Source: Escherichia phage arall
DNA length: 64,000 bases
Direction: 5' to 3' (one strand)
Sequence record: MN850584.1
Numbering within the stretch: the first letter of the stretch is position 1; each line of letters starts with the position of its first letter. Positions 33,913 to 50,690 of this stretch are shown here, piece by piece. The notes under the pieces were generated by a model. It was given only the letters and a program-made list of their open reading frames with translations, did no database searches and was not told the origin of the DNA. The translations under genes were made by a program, and so were the position numbers.

Positions 33913-34130
33913 TATTTTGAAAATTTTTATTTTTATAAAAAGGGGTGTGGTTTCATGTACGGAAATCCACCCTCTGAATAATATATCCAGAGTAAATATT
34001 ATTCTGTACTCTGTTAATAAAGTATTTAATTTGTTTGTTGGACTATGGTATCTGATCTTTAAAAGGTATACTATCTCTTAACTACTACTTATAACAGAAC
34101 AGTAAAATCATTTTTATAAAAAGGATAAAA

Positions 34131-34330
34131 TTATTTAAAGTTTTTACAGATTTTTGGATACAAATTTTGAAAATGAAAAGTTCAAGTTTGGTCAAAATTA
34201 TTTAAAGTTTTTGTACGTATTTCTATCCAGATTTTGAAAATGAAAACTTCAATTTTTTAAAAATTCCCCAGTTTATTTAAAGTTTTTTTGCCTTTTTCCG
34301 TAGAAAAATCAAAAATGAAAAGTTCAATTT
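34131..34330. repeat. Three iteron-like direct repeats (period about 66-75 bp)
   Basis: Each unit has TTATTTAAAGTTTTT followed by (A)TTTTGAAAATGAAAAGTTCAA-like motif (34164-34185, 34231-34252, 34308-34327). Confidence 0.6.
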
Positions 34331-34350
34331 CGTGTTTTTATGGGTGTGCG

Positions 34351-34672: not shown

Positions 34673-34939
34673 TTATTTTTTGTTTTCTTGCCAGGATAGG
34701 ACACCTAACCAAAAATACATGTCGCCCCGCGCCCCTGGCGGGATCTTGCTTTCCCCGCCGCCACTGCAAGCCCATAGATAACCATTTACGAACGTATCAA
34801 AGTGATCTATCTCTTCCACCTTATGATTGCCCAGGTTGAGAACGGTTTCAACCTTTAAGCCCGTTGCGCTTGCTACCTGGTGCACCGTGCCGCCTTGCCA
34901 GCCCAATGAGTGCATGAGGTGTAAAGTAGTATTTGTCAT
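34673..34939 (-). CDS. Hypothetical protein (88 aa) in GC-rich island
   Basis: ATG with AAAGGGCG SD-like sequence; own promoter and 5' hairpin upstream; local GC content higher than surroundings. Confidence 0.5.
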   Translation of the reverse strand: MTNTTLHLMHSLGWQGGTVHQVASATGLKVETVLNLGNHKVEEIDHFDTFVNGYLWACSGGGESKIPPGARGDMYFWLGVLSWQENKK

Positions 34940-34961
34940 GGTATCGCCCTTTCTTTGATGT

Positions 34962-34977
34962 GCGCCCTGGTTGGCGC
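34962..34977 (-). promoter_or_regulatory. 5'-UTR hairpin (GCGCC-AACCAG-GGCGC) of minus-strand gene
   Basis: Inverted repeat between promoter and start codon. Confidence 0.35.
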
Positions 34978-34986
34978 GGTAGAAAG

Positions 34987-35015
34987 ATAATAGCCCTTTC
35001 CTTTATAGATAGCAA
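34987..35015 (-). promoter_or_regulatory. Sigma70-like promoter (TTGCTA-17-TATTAT), minus strand
   Basis: Back-to-back with plus promoter at 35056; shared A-tract (35016-35050) could act as UP element for both. Confidence 0.45.
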
Positions 35016-35055
35016 GCAAAAAAAAAGAAATGAAAAAAAGATTAAAAAAAAGGGG

Positions 35056-35084
35056 TTGACGTTCCTCACCTGGTAGCGTATTAT
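35056..35084 (+). promoter_or_regulatory. Sigma70-like promoter (TTGACG-17-TATTAT), first plus-strand early promoter
   Basis: Preceded by long A-tract. Confidence 0.5.
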
Positions 35085-35211
35085 TCATCTTGTCGAGGGG
35101 GGCGAGGCACAACGACAATAAACAAAAGGAGGGCGCAATGTAGGACGGGCAAAGGTGAGGATCTCCATAATCCACCGTCACAATAACATTACTTATAAAA
35201 GGTTGATAACG

Positions 35212-35307
35212 ATGATCAAGAAAGAAAACAGCTTGACGGTTGGAACGATTAACGCTATCATTCTAGCCGTTCCATTTTGGGTTGTAGTAGCGGTTATTAT
35301 CTTTTAA
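35212..35307 (+). CDS. Small hydrophobic peptide (31 aa)
   Basis: ATG 9 nt after AAGG; single TM-like segment; low confidence. Confidence 0.25.
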   Translation: MIKKENSLTVGTINAIILAVPFWVVVAVIIF

Positions 35308-35315
35308 AAATATTC

Positions 35316-35343
35316 TTGACAACGTTTTTTAATCTGATAAGAT
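35316..35343 (+). promoter_or_regulatory. Sigma70-like promoter (TTGACA-16-TAAGAT)
   Basis: Upstream of hairpin and gene 35396. Confidence 0.45.
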
Positions 35344-35353
35344 GTATCACATA

Positions 35354-35373
35354 GGGCGGCAATAGTGCCGCTC
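35354..35373 (+). promoter_or_regulatory. Conserved 5'-UTR hairpin (family member 1)
   Basis: CATAGG-GCGGCA-ATAG-TGCCGC; 40-nt element identical to copy at 38448-38487. Confidence 0.6.
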
Positions 35374-35395
35374 ATAACAGAAGAGAGAAATAATC

Positions 35396-35668
35396 ATGGC
35401 ATCATATAGCGCATCAATGATCGTAATGGGTATCACTGGTAAACCTATGCGCGGTGGCGGATCTTTCGCTAACATCAATATTGATGGGCGTTTATCCCTG
35501 GATGCAGCGATCACCGTGGCACGGGAAACATTTAAAAAAGAATGTAATTTCAATAAACAAGATTATCTCGGTTTCGCTATTGAAAAAACCGCGCGCTTTG
35601 TTGATTATAAAAGCCCGAAAATGGTTGATACTACACTAAAAGCGCAAGATGTAGCATTTTTGCTTTAA
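35396..35668 (+). CDS. Hypothetical early protein
   Basis: 90 aa ORF, ATG start. Confidence 0.55.
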   Translation: MASYSASMIVMGITGKPMRGGGSFANINIDGRLSLDAAITVARETFKKECNFNKQDYLGFAIEKTARFVDYKSPKMVDTTLKAQDVAFLL

Positions 35669-35671
35669 GGC

Positions 35672-35701
35672 TTGACACTGAAAAATAATTTGGTAATATA
35701 T
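35672..35701 (+). promoter_or_regulatory. Sigma70-like promoter (TTGACA-17/18-AATATA)
   Basis: Upstream of hairpin and gene 35755. Confidence 0.45.
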
Positions 35702-35710
35702 ACTACATAG

Positions 35711-35732
35711 GGCGGGGAAATGGTTTCCCGCC
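35711..35732 (+). promoter_or_regulatory. Conserved 5'-UTR hairpin (family member 2)
   Basis: GGCGGGGAA-ATGG-TTTCCCGCC, 9-bp stem. Confidence 0.6.
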
Positions 35733-35754: not shown

Positions 35755-36117
35755 ATGAGCAAGCAAATCAATACTATCATGTTAAACCTGGTATCTTTCC
35801 GCGACGACGTGAAAAATCTTCCACGTGATGCAGTGGATGCACGTATCGAAAGCTATCGCTCACAGATCGCAACGCTACCGCTAAAACGTGATCAACATGC
35901 CGCTAATATGATGCTTAATGCTATGCTTAAAAAGATGATTCAATGTGATCTTACCCTGGCTTATGAATATGCTGGCGATCTCTTTGTAACATATAGCAAG
36001 CCCGTACCAGGTATGAGCACAACCGAAGAATTGCATGCCTTAAATCTGCGACAAGATGCATGGGATAACATGCGCCGTGTTATGGTATGGGTAGAAAGCG
36101 GTAAAATTTACGAATAA
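35755..36117 (+). CDS. Hypothetical early protein
   Basis: 120 aa ORF. Confidence 0.55.
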   Translation: MSKQINTIMLNLVSFRDDVKNLPRDAVDARIESYRSQIATLPLKRDQHAANMMLNAMLKKMIQCDLTLAYEYAGDLFVTYSKPVPGMSTTEELHALNLRQDAWDNMRRVMVWVESGKIYE

Positions 36118-37679: not shown

Positions 37680-37707
37680 TTGACAGCACGAATAAAAAGC
37701 ATATAAT
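37680..37707 (+). promoter_or_regulatory. Consensus sigma70 promoter (TTGACA-16-TATAAT)
   Basis: Perfect hexamers. Confidence 0.6.
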
Positions 37708-37720
37708 ACTTATATCGAGA

Positions 37721-37737
37721 GCGGGAATAGTTCCCGC
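37721..37737 (+). promoter_or_regulatory. Conserved 5'-UTR hairpin (family member 5)
   Basis: GCGGGAA-TAG-TTCCCGC. Confidence 0.6.
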
Positions 37738-37761
37738 CTCACTGAAAAAGAGATTAACATC

Positions 37762-38096: not shown

Positions 38097-38124
38097 TTGA
38101 CAACGTTTTAAATTAGTGTAAGAT
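38097..38124 (+). promoter_or_regulatory. Sigma70-like promoter (TTGACA-16-TAAGAT)
   Basis: Upstream of hairpin 38136. Confidence 0.45.
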
Positions 38125-38135
38125 ATATCACATAA

Positions 38136-38156
38136 GGCGGGAAATGGTTTCCCGCC
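38136..38156 (+). promoter_or_regulatory. Conserved 5'-UTR hairpin (family member 6)
   Basis: GGCGGGAA-ATGG-TTTCCCGCC; near-identical to member 2. Confidence 0.6.
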
Positions 38157-38415: not shown

Positions 38416-38443
38416 TTGACACGGGAAAGAAAAAGAGTAAACT
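38416..38443 (+). promoter_or_regulatory. Sigma70-like promoter (TTGACA-16-TAAACT)
   Basis: Upstream of hairpin 38454. Confidence 0.4.
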
Positions 38444-38453
38444 GTATTACATA

Positions 38454-38473
38454 GGGCGGCAATAGTGCCGCTC
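38454..38473 (+). promoter_or_regulatory. Conserved 5'-UTR hairpin (family member 7)
   Basis: Identical to member 1. Confidence 0.6.
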
Positions 38474-38496
38474 ATAACAGAAGAGAGATTATCACG

Positions 38497-38981: not shown

Positions 38982-39010
38982 TTGACAGTAGCATCATTTA
39001 TAAGTAAAGT
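38982..39010 (+). promoter_or_regulatory. Sigma70-like promoter (TTGACA-17-TAAAGT)
   Basis: Upstream of hairpin 39020. Confidence 0.4.
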
Positions 39011-39019
39011 AACAACAAC

Positions 39020-39040
39020 GGCGGGAAATGGTTTCCCGCC
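39020..39040 (+). promoter_or_regulatory. Conserved 5'-UTR hairpin (family member 9)
   Basis: GGCGGGAAA-TGG-TTTCCCGCC. Confidence 0.6.
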
Positions 39041-39435: not shown

Positions 39436-39573
39436 ATGAACGCATCACAGCAGATCGAAAAATTCAACCGCAGCAAGGCGCGTAAAGATTGGAACGAAGA
39501 GATCACCAAAAAAGGCGACAAGCGGAACAAAACAAAGAGAGATCGCAGCACAAAAAGATACTGGAACGAATAA
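39436..39573 (+). CDS. Small highly basic protein (45 aa)
   Basis: AAGAGGA SD; Lys/Arg-rich; followed by terminator. Confidence 0.4.
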   Translation: MNASQQIEKFNRSKARKDWNEEITKKGDKRNKTKRDRSTKRYWNE

Positions 39574-39574
39574 C

Positions 39575-39602
39575 AAAAAAGGGCGCAATAAGCGCCCTTT
39601 TA
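39575..39602 (+). terminator. Rho-independent terminator
   Basis: AAAAAAGGGCGC-AATAA-GCGCCCTTTT. Confidence 0.65.
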
Positions 39603-41288: not shown

Positions 41289-41317
41289 TTGACAGCACAC
41301 CTAACAGATAGTATATT
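41289..41317 (+). promoter_or_regulatory. Sigma70-like promoter (TTGACA-17-TATATT)
   Basis: Upstream of hairpin 41330. Confidence 0.5.
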
Positions 41318-41329
41318 GTATCTCATAGA

Positions 41330-41350
41330 GCGGGGAAATGGTTTCCCCGC
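41330..41350 (+). promoter_or_regulatory. Conserved 5'-UTR hairpin (family member 10)
   Basis: GCGGGGAAA-TGG-TTTCCCCGC. Confidence 0.6.
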
Positions 41351-41656: not shown

Positions 41657-41685
41657 TTGACACTAGGCAAACAACGTAGTAAAGT
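41657..41685 (+). promoter_or_regulatory. Sigma70-like promoter (TTGACA-17-TAAAGT)
   Basis: Upstream of hairpin 41696. Confidence 0.45.
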
Positions 41686-41695
41686 TTATCACATA

Positions 41696-41718
41696 GGGCG
41701 GGAAATGGTTTCCCGCTC
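41696..41718 (+). promoter_or_regulatory. Conserved 5'-UTR hairpin (family member 11)
   Basis: GCGGGAAA-TGG-TTTCCCGC. Confidence 0.6.
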
Positions 41719-42229: not shown

Positions 42230-42257
42230 TTGATAATATGCTGTTATCTGGTAAAGT
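42230..42257 (+). promoter_or_regulatory. Sigma70-like promoter (TTGATA-16-TAAAGT)
   Basis: Upstream of hairpin 42268. Confidence 0.35.
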
Positions 42258-42267
42258 GTACGACATA

Positions 42268-42291
42268 GGGCGAGGCAATAAGGCAACGCCC
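42268..42291 (+). promoter_or_regulatory. 5'-UTR hairpin variant (family member 13, large loop)
   Basis: GGGCG-(14 nt)-CGCCC. Confidence 0.35.
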
Positions 42292-42671: not shown

Positions 42672-42699
42672 TTGACACCGATCCCCAATATGTTATTAT
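42672..42699 (+). promoter_or_regulatory. Sigma70-like promoter (TTGACA-16-TATTAT)
   Basis: Upstream of hairpin 42710. Confidence 0.5.
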
Positions 42700-42709
42700 T
42701 TACCACGTA

Positions 42710-42730
42710 AGCGGGAAATGGTTTCCCGCT
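42710..42730 (+). promoter_or_regulatory. Conserved 5'-UTR hairpin (family member 14)
   Basis: AGCGGGAAA-TGG-TTTCCCGCT. Confidence 0.6.
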
Positions 42731-43143: not shown

Positions 43144-43156
43144 TACACGGTAAAAG

Positions 43157-43184
43157 AAAGGGGCGCACTAAGCGCCCTTTTTTG
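43157..43184 (+). terminator. Rho-independent terminator
   Basis: AAAGGGGCGC-ACTA-AGCGCCCTTTTTT. Confidence 0.65.
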
Positions 43185-43987: not shown

Positions 43988-44001
43988 ATAACATTCCATA
44001 C

Positions 44002-44029
44002 AAGGGCGCACAAAGCGCCCTTTCTTTTT
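44002..44029 (+). terminator. Rho-independent terminator
   Basis: AAGGGCGC-ACAAA-GCGCCCTTTCTTTTT. Confidence 0.65.
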
Positions 44030-44845: not shown

Positions 44846-45112
44846 TAATGTTTAGAACATTGGCTATAATATAAGCTGCATATAATAAGCTATACAATAA
44901 TAAACATGGTGAATAATGACCCTGATGATCATAATGCGCCACCCTCCAGGGGGCGCTATGTGTACACAAAAAATCTTTCTTGTCAAGAAAATATTAACAC
45001 TATTGCGCAAAATTATTTACAACTGAATAGATGATTTTTCATACTATTGCCCCTATAACATACCTCATTTGTTGAGCCTACTTTCTTAAAAGCGCAATAA
45101 ATCAGAATTATC

Positions 45113-45141
45113 TTGATTTTTAGGGCGTTTTATAGTATAGA
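45113..45141 (+). promoter_or_regulatory. Candidate promoter (TTGATT-17-TATAGA) with Fur box at predicted start site
   Basis: Weak hexamers; Fur-like 19-mer immediately downstream. Confidence 0.25.
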
Positions 45142-45147
45142 AAATAT

Positions 45148-45166
45148 GCAAATGATAATCATTATC
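45148..45166. promoter_or_regulatory. Fur-box-like operator (best match)
   Basis: GCAAATGATAATCATTATC vs Fur consensus GATAATGATAATCATTATC, 17/19. Confidence 0.45.
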
Positions 45167-45330
45167 AGCTATCTTCCACGGGTGGCACTATTTCACGCCA
45201 GATCATTTCATTTGGCAAGGTGTATATAGATGTTTAGACTTGCCAAGCCATTGATTTACTTAGAATTTATCTGTTTTGTTGTGAGTAGTACCTTTCTTGC
45301 TTAGAAAATAATCAAAAGTCTTATAAGTCA

Positions 45331-45365
45331 TTGAATGATAATGCAAATGATAATTATTCTCATTG
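45331..45365 (+). promoter_or_regulatory. Candidate promoter overlapped by tandem GATAAT Fur-like repeats
   Basis: TTGAATGATAATGCAAATGATAATTATTCTCATTG; -35-like TTGAAT, AT-rich -10 region. Confidence 0.35.
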
Positions 45366-45445
45366 ATATTTGAGGGGGACGGTCGGCAGAAATCGGGGGG
45401 CGCTGAAAATCGCGTTAAGCACCTCTCGCAAGCGAGCAGTGTTTT
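45366..45445 (+). ncRNA. Candidate small RNA (about 80 nt) between Fur-like operator and terminator-like hairpin
   Basis: GC-rich segment with no ORF, ending in CACCTCTCGC-AA-GCGAGCAGTG hairpin followed by TTTT (45420-45445); speculative. Confidence 0.25.
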
Positions 45446-50479: not shown

Positions 50480-50690
50480 AACGCACTTTATACATCCGTT
50501 TGATCCAAAGAACAAGGCGGTTATACACCGCCGTTGGACTGAAACGCGCATTACAAAATGTCCTGTGCCAGCAGCACAGGAATATAACAAAACATATAAA
50601 GCAGAATTTGTGGAGTACACCTTTGTAAATAACAAAGGGAAGGAGGTTTATGTTCCAGAATACTGCCTTTGGATAAAATGGGAGGAATAA
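50472..50690 (+). CDS. Hypothetical protein
   Basis: 72 aa ORF. Confidence 0.45.
   Translation: MSKTHFIHPFDPKNKAVIHRRWTETRITKCPVPAAQEYNKTYKAEFVEYTFVNNKGKEVYVPEYCLWIKWEE

What the first reader, a model, noticed from the sequence alone, without database searches (positions are those of the whole stretch)
35126..35143. Minimal start-stop ORF behind a strong Shine-Dalgarno
AAGGAGG is followed at proper spacing by ATG-TAG. Start-stop elements can occupy ribosomes or couple translation to downstream genes, but this may be coincidental.
Basis: seen in the sequence. Interest (0 to 1): 0.2.

Follow-up and report, generated by a model that had tools for sequence, protein, structure and literature searches.

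The report
Orphan ribosome site in phage leader
The strong ribosome-binding site followed by ATG-TAG is real and probably binds ribosomes, but close relatives freely swap the stop codon, lose the binding site or lack the whole leader, so the start-stop looks like a leftover gene start rather than a selected regulatory device.

Summary
The motif is exactly as described: AAGGAGG (35126-35132), 5 nt, ATG (35138-35140), TAG (35141-35143). The window is a phi92-like E. coli myovirus (Stephanstirmvirinae). The motif lies about 47 nt into an early transcript from a sigma70-type promoter (35056-35084). That is 54 nt after the -10 box, the distance (51-56 nt) at which the first gene starts in this phage's repeated promoter/stem-loop cassettes.

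The Shine-Dalgarno (SD) pairing is much stronger than for neighbouring real genes (-12.1 versus -3.6 to -5.0 kcal/mol), and the site is mostly unpaired, so ribosome binding is plausible.

The start-stop state is not conserved. Among 57 phage records with this leader:
- 29 have TAG.
- 17 have CAG with the SD intact, giving a 6-codon ORF (MQDGQR*).
- 11 have a crippled SD (AGGCGGG) plus CAG or CAA.

Both T and C occur on three leader backgrounds in two genera. Diversity across SD to stop (pi 0.116) is at least that of synonymous sites next door (0.088). About 84 further records share the promoter but lack this leader. No RNA structure, Rfam family or terminator is involved, and the next real start codon (31-aa membrane ORF) begins 68 nt after the stop.

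Verdict: an orphan or vestigial gene start. Any effect on mRNA protection is unproven. Low interest.

The parts
34673..34939 (-). Divergently transcribed 88-aa gene of unknown function (phrog_19316). It travels together with the promoter region.
   Evidence: ORF list; PHROG hit at 4.7e-58; annotated as a CDS in relatives. Diversity by codon position is 0.037, 0.008 and 0.088, which indicates a coding sequence.
35056..35084 (+). Sigma70-type early promoter, TTGACG-17-TATTAT. The inferred transcription start is near 35091.
   Evidence: Promoter scan, 10 of 12 matches. The promoter region 34860-35095 that contains it matches 141 phage records, 131 of them over at least 80% of its length. The transcription start is inferred, not mapped.
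35091..35179 (+). The 'long leader' segment. It starts with a G-rich 5' end containing a poly-G tract (35096-35101, 5-7 G in relatives), followed by an A-rich spacer, the SD-ATG, and a near-invariant 3' part. It ends at CCACCGTC (35172-35179), which is a mosaic junction.
   Evidence: Alignments. Present in 57 phage records and replaced by a short hairpin leader in UAB_1, nieznany and EcG1. No significant fold, z = +1.1. No covarying base pairs. No Rfam match.
35126..35132 (+). Shine-Dalgarno sequence AAGGAGG.
   Evidence: Duplex with the 16S rRNA 3' end is -12.1 kcal/mol, and the site is 73% unpaired. It reads AGGCGGG in 11 of 57 relatives.
35138..35140 (+). ATG start codon, 54 nt after the -10 box.
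   Evidence: Invariant in all fetched leader sequences: 27 loci plus two metagenome contigs. The spacing matches other cassettes at 51-56 nt.
35141..35143 (+). TAG stop codon. This is the polymorphic codon 2, which reads CAG or CAA in 28 of 57 relatives.
35156..35158 (+). TGA that ends the 6-codon ORF (ATG CAG GAC GGG CAA AGG TGA) in relatives carrying CAG or CAA. It overlaps GTG 35155-35157.
   Evidence: Read directly from the sequences. GTG 35155 opens the 50-aa frame listed.
35212..35307 (+). A 31-aa hydrophobic ORF (MIKKENSLTVGTINAIILAVPFWVVVAVIIF). It is the first conserved gene of this transcript.
   Evidence: Mostly synonymous or conservative substitutions across 14 distinct alleles. 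Annotated in the BASEL phages and nieznany. In nieznany it sits behind a generic hairpin leader.
35316..35372 (+). The next promoter (TTGACA-16-TAAGAT) with the generic 5' stem-loop GGGCGGCA-ATAG-TGCCGCTC. This is the short leader type that replaces the long leader in other phages.
   Evidence: (families D1, D2, D7).

Best explanation
The SD-ATG at 35126-35140 is an orphan translation-initiation site. It sits at the canonical first-gene position of an early-promoter cassette in a phi92-like phage. The reading frame behind it is vestigial: one codon here (ATG-TAG) and six codons (MQDGQR*) in relatives. Inferred mechanism: host RNA polymerase starts transcription near 35091. Ribosomes bind the strong, accessible SD and place fMet-tRNA on the AUG. 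UAG then sits in the A site, RF1 releases fMet, and the ribosome is recycled without making a product. The start-stop state is a C/T polymorphism at the first base of codon 2. It is effectively neutral rather than a selected device. Any consequence, such as some shielding of a long 5' leader that lacks the usual 5' hairpin, would be a side effect of ribosome binding and would not depend on the adjacent stop. Shown here: the sequence, the promoter context, the spacing, the SD strength, the polymorphism and the facultative presence of the leader. Inferred only: transcription, ribosome binding, and the relic origin.
For: - **Motif and promoter:**
- **Position:** the ATG lies 54 nt after the -10 box, against 51-56 nt for the first genes of the hairpin-leader cassettes, namely 53, 55, 54, 51 and 55 from the table, plus 56 and 55 for the promoters at 35672 and 38097, worked out by hand from the ORF starts.
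- **SD strength:** the SD duplex is -12.1 kcal/mol, against -3.6 to -5.0 for the neighbouring genes, and the SD is 73% unpaired.
- **SD usage:** AGGAGG in this phage mostly marks true gene starts.
- **Polymorphism:** of 57 records with the leader, 29 have TAG, 17 have CAG with an intact SD, and 11 have AGGCGGG with CAG or CAA. This was deduced from mismatch counts against both alleles plus the fetched sequences.
- **Recurrence:** both T and C occur on each of three leader backgrounds (AAAAGG, AACAGG, AAGAGG) in Justusliebigvirus and Phapecoctavirus. The change is therefore recurrent or recombining and is tolerated.
- **Diversity:** nucleotide diversity at 35123-35143 is 0.116, against 0.088 at third codon positions of the adjacent 88-aa gene.
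- **Facultative leader:** 141 records share the promoter region but only 57 carry the long leader. UAB_1, nieznany and EcG1 have a roughly 27-nt hairpin leader feeding directly into the next gene.
- **No longer ORF:** no relative has a longer ORF from this ATG.
- **No RNA element:** there is no RNA structure, Rfam family or terminator.
Against: - The ATG is invariant in every fetched copy, and AGGAGG is retained in 46 of 57 records across two genera. This could reflect selection for ribosome loading rather than mere relic status.
- No ancestral full-length gene was found. The 59-nt leader matches only these 57 records, and otherwise only phages of the same clade in IMG/VR and metagenomes, plus one chance 23-mer in a Planctomycetaceae MAG. 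The relic origin therefore rests on position, not homology.
- The 3' part of the leader (35144-35179) is unusually invariant, with pi 0.015. Part of this is ascertainment, but it remains unexplained.
- The transcription start site and ribosome binding are inferred, not measured.
Confidence: 0.55

Rival explanations
1. The site is a functional ribosome-loading site that protects the mRNA. The strong upstream ribosome-binding site is maintained to keep a ribosome near the 5' end of a long leader that has lost the usual 5' GC stem-loop. This would shield the leader from RNase E or Rho. The length of the mini-ORF (1 or 6 codons) would not matter.
For: - The ATG is invariant and AGGAGG is kept in 46 of 57 records across two genera.
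- The SD is far stronger than those of neighbouring genes and is accessible.
- Phages with the short leader have an 8-bp GC hairpin at the 5' end instead. The long leader keeps only the left arm of that hairpin. The two leader types may therefore carry alternative 5' protective elements.
- Ribosome-occupied upstream ribosome-binding sites that yield no detectable product are documented in bacteria (PMC13285730).
Against: - 11 of 57 records have AGGCGGG, with a duplex of only -6.8 kcal/mol.
- The SD-to-stop stretch is the most variable part of the leader.
- 84 of 141 phage records do without the whole segment.
- No measurement of RNA stability exists.
Confidence: 0.22
2. The start-stop (or the 6-codon ORF) drives termination-reinitiation. 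Ribosomes that terminate at TAG (35141-35143) or at TGA (35156-35158) would restart at GTG 35155. This would produce a 50-aa, N-terminally extended form of the 31-aa membrane protein.
For: - GTG 35155 begins 11 nt after the TAG.
- In CAG or CAA alleles GTG 35155 overlaps the TGA as GTGA.
- GTG 35155 is in frame with the 31-aa ORF (sequences).
- One annotation (phage cardinal) calls the gene from this GTG.
Against: - In Phapecoctavirus the same leader precedes a different 65-aa gene that is out of frame with the GTG (sequences).
- In nieznany the 31-aa gene sits behind a different leader and starts at the ATG.
- The only two variable sites between the GTG and the ATG are non-synonymous second-position changes, I/T and L/S.
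- The GTG has no SD of its own.
Confidence: 0.06
3. Pure coincidence. An SD-like heptamer, an ATG and a TAG happen to lie together in non-coding DNA, and the site has no special relation to translation.
For: With relaxed SD definitions about one such motif is expected per 64-kb window. Other AGGAGG sites followed by very short ORFs exist, for example at 50641 and 57484. The stop codon is clearly not conserved.
Against: - The exact heptamer pattern is expected only 0.02-0.05 times per window.
- The site lies in a promoter-proximal leader at the canonical 54-nt distance from the -10 box.
- Its SD is the strongest in the neighbourhood.
- The ATG is invariant.
Confidence: 0.15

Closest known systems
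Bacterial 'start-stop' sites (Meydan et al., Ribo-RET; bioRxiv 10.1101/520783, read): 14 sites in E. coli, with yecJ and hslR validated
   Same: An SD-like sequence, an AUG directly followed by a stop codon, and no possible product. Ribosome binding was shown there by toeprinting, with a small (about 16%) effect on the host gene. That paper also proposes that an immediate stop may simply neutralise an accidental initiation site, which fits the present case.
   Different: Those sites lie inside genes, out of frame. This one is in a 5' leader of a phage early transcript, and its stop begins 68 nt before the next real start codon. No occupancy data exist here. The stop is polymorphic among near-identical relatives.
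Upstream ribosome-binding sites and uORFs in bacterial leaders (Sinorhizobium meliloti study, PMC13285730)
   Same: A predicted SD plus start codon in an mRNA leader. Some such sites are ribosome-occupied yet give no detectable product.
   Different: The mechanisms proposed there need the upstream site within about 3-25 nt of the main start codon (occlusion) or an overlapping stop/start (coupling). Here the two start codons are 74 nt apart.
Phage lambda bar minigenes (two-codon AUG-AUA-stop ORFs that are toxic in peptidyl-tRNA-hydrolase-defective hosts). This comparison is from my own knowledge. Related literature on minigene toxicity was listed (for example PMC2490762) but was not read.
   Same: A phage-encoded, SD-driven ORF too short to make a protein. 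Its only possible action is on the translation machinery.
   Different: Bar toxicity depends on drop-off of a peptidyl-tRNA carrying a sense codon. A one-codon ORF releases fMet through a release factor and sequesters no elongator tRNA. The 6-codon allele in relatives would be the closer analogue. Toxicity was not tested.
PeSL cassettes of T4-type phages (promoter-early stem-loops that mediate modular shuffling; PMC2839356; PMC4122927)
   Same: The window carries about ten repeats of a strong sigma70-type promoter plus a GC stem-loop in a region of small unknown genes. Gene content between them differs among relatives, with junctions at these elements. The long leader is one such variable segment.
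   Different: This is a different phage subfamily (Stephanstirmvirinae). Here the stem-loop lies downstream of the promoter at the 5' end of the transcript and has no T-run. Terminator function and recombination were not tested.

Membership tests
Bacterial start-stop element (Meydan et al. 2019) | [quoted passage not shown] | tested here: met
   ATG 35138-35140 and TAG 35141-35143.
Bacterial start-stop element (Meydan et al. 2019) | An SD-like sequence at functional spacing, in a transcribed region. | tested here: met
   AAGGAGG with a 5-nt spacer, a duplex of -12.1 kcal/mol and 73% unpaired. It lies downstream of a sigma70-type promoter. Transcription is inferred only.
Bacterial start-stop element (Meydan et al. 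2019) | Ribosome occupancy at the start codon (Ribo-RET or toeprint). | not testable with these tools
   No profiling or toeprinting data for these phages were found in the literature searches.
Bacterial start-stop element (as a selected regulatory device) | The start-stop arrangement is maintained in relatives. | tested here: not met
   29 of 57 records have TAG, 17 have CAG, and 11 have lost the SD and carry CAG or CAA. Diversity across SD to stop (0.116) is at least the synonymous-site diversity (0.088).
Translational coupling by a uORF (stop/start overlap or close proximity) | The uORF stop overlaps, or lies within a few nt of, the main ORF's start codon or ribosome-binding site. | tested here: not met
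   68 nt separate the TAG from ATG 35212. The GTGA overlap at 35155-35158 exists only in CAG or CAA alleles, and the frame it opens is not conserved across genera.
Leader-peptide attenuator or riboswitch-like leader | Alternative RNA structures or a terminator coupled to uORF translation, or a conserved structured RNA. | tested here: not met
   Fold z-score of +1.1. 0 of 16 predicted pairs show compensatory changes. No terminator in the leader. No Rfam hit.
Lambda bar-type toxic minigene | SD, AUG, one or a few sense codons and a stop, with toxicity through peptidyl-tRNA drop-off. | tested here: not met
   There is no sense codon after the AUG in this window. The 6-codon form exists only in relatives. 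Toxicity cannot be tested here.
PeSL-like promoter/stem-loop cassette | A strong sigma70-type promoter with an adjacent GC stem-loop, repeated in the genome and marking junctions between variable genes. | tested here: inconclusive
   The promoter is present. The long leader keeps only the G-rich left arm, whereas relatives with the short leader have the full hairpin. The repeats and junctions are documented. Similarity of the SD-ATG region to the generic hairpin is not above chance, p = 0.16-0.28.

The most novel reading that the evidence does not exclude
The long leader is a functional alternative to the usual 5' stem-loop of this phage's early cassettes. In this reading a very strong, productless ribosome-binding site (a start-stop or a 6-codon mini-ORF) parks a ribosome near the 5' end to stabilise or tune the early transcript. 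The recurrent TAG/CAG switch, seen on three leader backgrounds in two genera, would then be a maintained polymorphism that adjusts ribosome dwell time or reinitiation in different hosts. One possible case is hosts with an amber (TAG) suppressor that inserts glutamine.
Probability: 0.12. Interest if true: 0.4.

Novelty: new member of a known kind. Interest (0 to 1): 0.12.

Why it matters
If ribosomes do occupy this site, it would be a phage example of a productless upstream initiation site in an early leader. It would also come with a ready-made natural allelic series (start-stop, 6-codon ORF, weakened SD, leader absent). That series could be used to measure what a parked ribosome does to a 5' UTR. 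As it stands, the comparative data say the start-stop itself is not under selection, so the finding mainly illustrates how cassette shuffling in phage early regions leaves orphan gene starts. It does not open a new question.

Tried and rejected
- **Structured RNA or riboswitch in the leader:** the fold z-score is +1.1, there is no covariation and no Rfam match. Rejected.
- **Repeat of the leader elsewhere in the window:** only the downstream generic leader (35343-35388, matching 38443-38488) is repeated, not the start-stop leader.
- **SD-ATG region as a decayed copy of the generic hairpin (AGGGCGGCAAT):** the local alignment is not better than shuffles, p = 0.16-0.28. Not supported.
- **Relic of a gene found intact in distant relatives:** two IMG/VR loci (L018, L019) with a 41-58% identical homologue of the 88-aa gene have AAGGAG...ATGCAG/ATGCAA opening a real gene at the syntenic position. 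Similarity does not extend beyond the first two codons. This is suggestive only.
- **Hidden ORF in another frame:** one annotation (KMB37) calls a 31-aa CDS there. It depends on a 5-G variant of the poly-G tract and has no start codon in the window. By my own reading of the variable sites, synonymous-looking changes are equally frequent in two frames. Rejected.
- **Minus-strand ORFs over the leader:** these appear in annotations of VivaForever, ZYD, DE16, PsgM04F and Antha, but with different coordinates in different records. The window's own antisense ORFs (34936-35181 and 35347-35553) do not match the VivaForever call. They are treated as gene-caller artefacts.
- **Suppressor tRNA or TAG recoding (TAG and CAG both read as Gln):** no tRNA genes lie in the window. 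The rest of the genome was not examined, so this remains only a speculation.
- **Wider searches:** E. coli genomes gave no match. The genome-contig scan gave one chance 23-mer in a Planctomycetaceae MAG. The metagenome scan gave two further phages of the same clade, both with TAG.

Full report
**1. Observation**

The sequence at 35126-35143 reads AAGGAGG GCGCA ATG TAG. The exact pattern occurs once in the window, against 0.02 expected from dinucleotide shuffles. Allowing any stop codon gives 0.05 expected. With a relaxed 5-mer SD, about one hit per 64 kb is expected. The motif is therefore real, but on its own only mildly improbable.

**2. Where it sits**

The window matches phi92-like E. coli myoviruses at 97-98% identity. 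These belong to Stephanstirmvirinae: Justusliebigvirus, with Phapecoctavirus as the sister genus (taxonomy). There is no match in E. coli genomes.

The site lies in a divergent intergenic region.
- On the minus strand is an 88-aa gene (34673-34939, phrog_19316, unknown function).
- On the plus strand is a 10/12 sigma70-type promoter, TTGACG-17-TATTAT, at 35056-35084. This implies a transcription start near 35091, so the ATG would be at about +47.
- Downstream come a 31-aa hydrophobic ORF (ATG 35212 to 35307), then a second promoter (35316-35343) with a GC stem-loop, then a 90-aa ORF (35396-35668).

The 31-aa ORF looks like a real gene. Across 14 distinct alleles it shows mainly synonymous or conservative changes, and several records annotate it.

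**3. The SD-ATG looks like a genuine gene start**

The window carries about ten repeats of an early cassette: a TTGACA-16/17-TAnnnT promoter, a 5' GC stem-loop, an SD and a small ORF. In the cassettes with the hairpin leader, the first-gene ATG lies 51-56 nt after the -10 box. The values are 53, 55, 54, 51 and 55 from the table. For the promoters at 35672 and 38097 they are 56 and 55, worked out by hand from the ORF starts at 35755 and 38179.

The start-stop ATG lies 54 nt after its own -10 box. Its SD:anti-SD duplex is -12.1 kcal/mol, against -3.6 to -5.0 for the 31-aa, 90-aa and 88-aa genes. The SD is 73% unpaired in the predicted ensemble. Of the 30 AGGAGG sites in the window, about 18 precede long ORFs. 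Ribosome binding is thus plausible, although it is inferred.

**4. The start-stop is not conserved**

A 59-nt query around the site finds 57 phage records. I compared mismatch counts against the window allele and the phi92 allele, and read the fetched sequences: 27 leader-bearing loci and two metagenome contigs. The result is:

| State | Records |
|---|---|
| TAG | 29 |
| CAG with AGGAGG intact (ATG CAG GAC GGG CAA AGG TGA = MQDGQR*) | 17 |
| AGGCGGG (duplex only -6.8 kcal/mol) with CAG or CAA | 11 |

Both T and C at 35141 occur on each of three leader backgrounds (AAAAGG, AACAGG, AAGAGG), spanning both genera. All four combinations with the nearby T/C site at 35168 also exist. The change has therefore recurred or recombined, and it is tolerated.

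Nucleotide diversity, from 21 distinct sequences:

| Region | pi |
|---|---|
| 35123-35143 (SD to stop) | 0.116 |
| Third codon positions of the adjacent 88-aa gene | 0.088 |
| 5' part of the leader | 0.028 |
| 3' part of the leader (35144-35179) | 0.015 |

The low value for the 3' part is inflated by my use of that stretch as a search anchor. The ATG is invariant in every fetched copy.

**5. The whole leader is facultative**

The promoter region (34860-35095) is shared by 141 phage records, 131 of them at 80% coverage or more. Only 57 carry this leader. In UAB_1, nieznany and EcG1 the same promoter is followed by the generic short leader, GGGCGGCAAT(A/G)GTGCCGCTC, running straight into the next gene.

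In Phapecoctavirus phages that do have the long leader, it ends at CCACCGTC and is followed by a different 65-aa gene (phrog_23268) instead of the 31-aa ORF. In nieznany the 31-aa gene sits elsewhere, behind a generic hairpin leader.

The long leader is thus a segment of about 85-110 nt that travels with the promoter. It is bounded by cassette junctions of the kind described for T4-type PeSLs (PMC2839356).

**6. What it is not**

- It is not a structured RNA. The fold z-score is +1.1, 0 of 16 consensus pairs show compensatory changes, and there is no Rfam hit.
- The leader contains no terminator.
- It is not a coupling device for the 31-aa gene. The next start codon begins 68 nt after the stop, and the ribosome footprint would not reach that gene's ribosome-binding site.
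- The GTG at 35155 begins 11 nt after the TAG. In CAG or CAA alleles it overlaps the TGA as GTGA, and it opens a 50-aa frame in phase with the 31-aa ORF. One annotation uses this start. However, the frame is not conserved in Phapecoctavirus. The two variable sites within it are non-synonymous. The 31-aa gene also starts at its ATG behind a different leader in nieznany.
- Similarity of the SD-ATG stretch to the generic hairpin is not above chance.
- No longer ORF from this ATG exists in any relative, and the leader occurs nowhere outside this phage group. The only other hit is one chance 23-mer in a Planctomycetaceae MAG.

**7. Interpretation**

The best-supported reading is an orphan or vestigial gene start. 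It is a cassette-type translation-initiation region at the canonical distance from its promoter, and its reading frame has collapsed to one or six codons.

In this phage a bound ribosome would meet UAG in the A site and be released by RF1 without making a product. The stop codon is a neutral C/T polymorphism.

One rival cannot be excluded (about 0.2). In that view the strong ribosome-binding site is kept because a parked ribosome protects a leader that lacks the usual 5' hairpin. The invariant ATG and the 81% retention of AGGAGG point that way. Against it stand the 11 records with a weakened SD and the 84 records without the leader.

Reinitiation at GTG 35155 and pure coincidence are less likely.

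**8. Comparison with known systems**

Start-stops with SD-like sequences were defined in E. coli by Ribo-RET. There are 14 sites, and yecJ and hslR were validated by toeprinting, with a roughly 16% effect on the host gene (10.1101/520783). That paper also suggests an immediate stop may simply neutralise an accidental start site.

The present site meets the sequence criteria. It fails the conservation test, and its ribosome occupancy cannot be tested here.

Upstream ribosome-binding sites that act by occlusion or coupling need close spacing to the main start (PMC13285730), which is not the case here.

Lambda bar minigenes (from my own knowledge) need a sense codon, so the one-codon form is not of that type.

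**9. Verdict**

This is an ordinary by-product of cassette shuffling in a phage early region. Its only modest value is as a natural allelic series for testing what a productless ribosome-binding site does in a 5' leader.

Interest 0.12. Novelty: new member of a known kind.

Noticed in passing
window 35316-35372, 35672-35730, 37680-37740, 38097-38155, 38416-38488, 38982-39039, 41289-41348, 41657-41716, 42230-42276, 42672-42729: About ten repeats of a cassette made of a strong sigma70-type promoter (TTGACA-16/17-TAAGAT-like) followed at the transcript 5' end by a GC stem-loop (GGGCGGCAATAGTGCCGCTC or GGCGGGAAATGGTTTCCCGCC). An SD and a small ORF of unknown function follow, 51-56 nt after the -10 box. 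This resembles the PeSL cassettes of T4-type phages, but in Stephanstirmvirinae.
   Followed up: partly
window 35091-35179 versus L039 (UAB_1), L040 (nieznany), L041 (EcG1): There is a long/short leader dimorphism behind one and the same promoter. 57 records have the long leader of about 85-110 nt, and about 84 have a short hairpin leader of about 27 nt. The junctions lie at the G-rich left arm (GAGGGG) and at CCACCGTC.
   Followed up: yes
window 35096-35101: The poly-G tract at the 5' end of the leader varies between 5, 6 and 7 G among near-identical phages. This shifts the frames and creates spurious annotated CDSs, for example the KMB37 31-aa CDS.
   Followed up: partly
window 35144-35179: The 3' part of the long leader (GACGGGCAAAGGTGAGGATCTCCAYAATCCACCGTC) has only one variable site in 21 distinct sequences from two genera, with pi 0.015. 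Part of this is ascertainment. There is no supporting RNA structure and no explanation.
   Followed up: partly
window 34127-34331: Three tandem A/T-rich repeats of about 63-75 nt (AAAATTATTTAAAGTTTTT...GAAAATGAAAAGTTCAA). They lie in the gap between the plus-strand gene block ending near 34081 and the minus-strand small ORFs. They might be an origin, iterons or a binding array. Their function is unknown (family D3).
   Followed up: no
window 39571-39601, 43151-43181, 43994-44024: A repeated terminator-like hairpin, AAGGGCGC-N4-GCGCCCTTTT, lies among the small early genes (family D6).
   Followed up: no
window 35233-35261: A 10/12 promoter-like match (TTGACG-17-TATCAT) lies inside the 31-aa ORF. 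It may be fortuitous.
   Followed up: no
window 35212-35307; L024 (phi92), L028 (cardinal), L005 (PD06): The 31-aa hydrophobic ORF (MIKKENSLTVGTINAI...) is conserved with mostly synonymous or conservative changes. In phi92, cardinal and PD06 the C-terminus differs and the frame runs on beyond 31 codons. It has no Pfam or PHROG family.
   Followed up: partly
window 50641 and 57484 (+ strand); 9198 and 60894 (- strand): Other AGGAGG sites are followed at SD spacing by a start codon that opens only 2-9 codons. Their genic context was not examined.
   Followed up: no
phage database hits: Near-identical sequences are deposited under the names Campylobacter, Pseudomonas, Acinetobacter, Serratia, Klebsiella and Salmonella phages. 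These host labels for what are phi92/phAPEC8-like coliphage genomes look doubtful or reflect contamination. One record (ZYD) is filed under Vequintavirus.
   Followed up: no
window 44916-45377: Three copies of a 37-nt element (ATGCAAATGATAATCATTATC...) are spaced about 200 nt apart (family D5). A similar 'GAGAATGATTCTCATT' palindromic motif was seen upstream in the distant locus L015.
   Followed up: no
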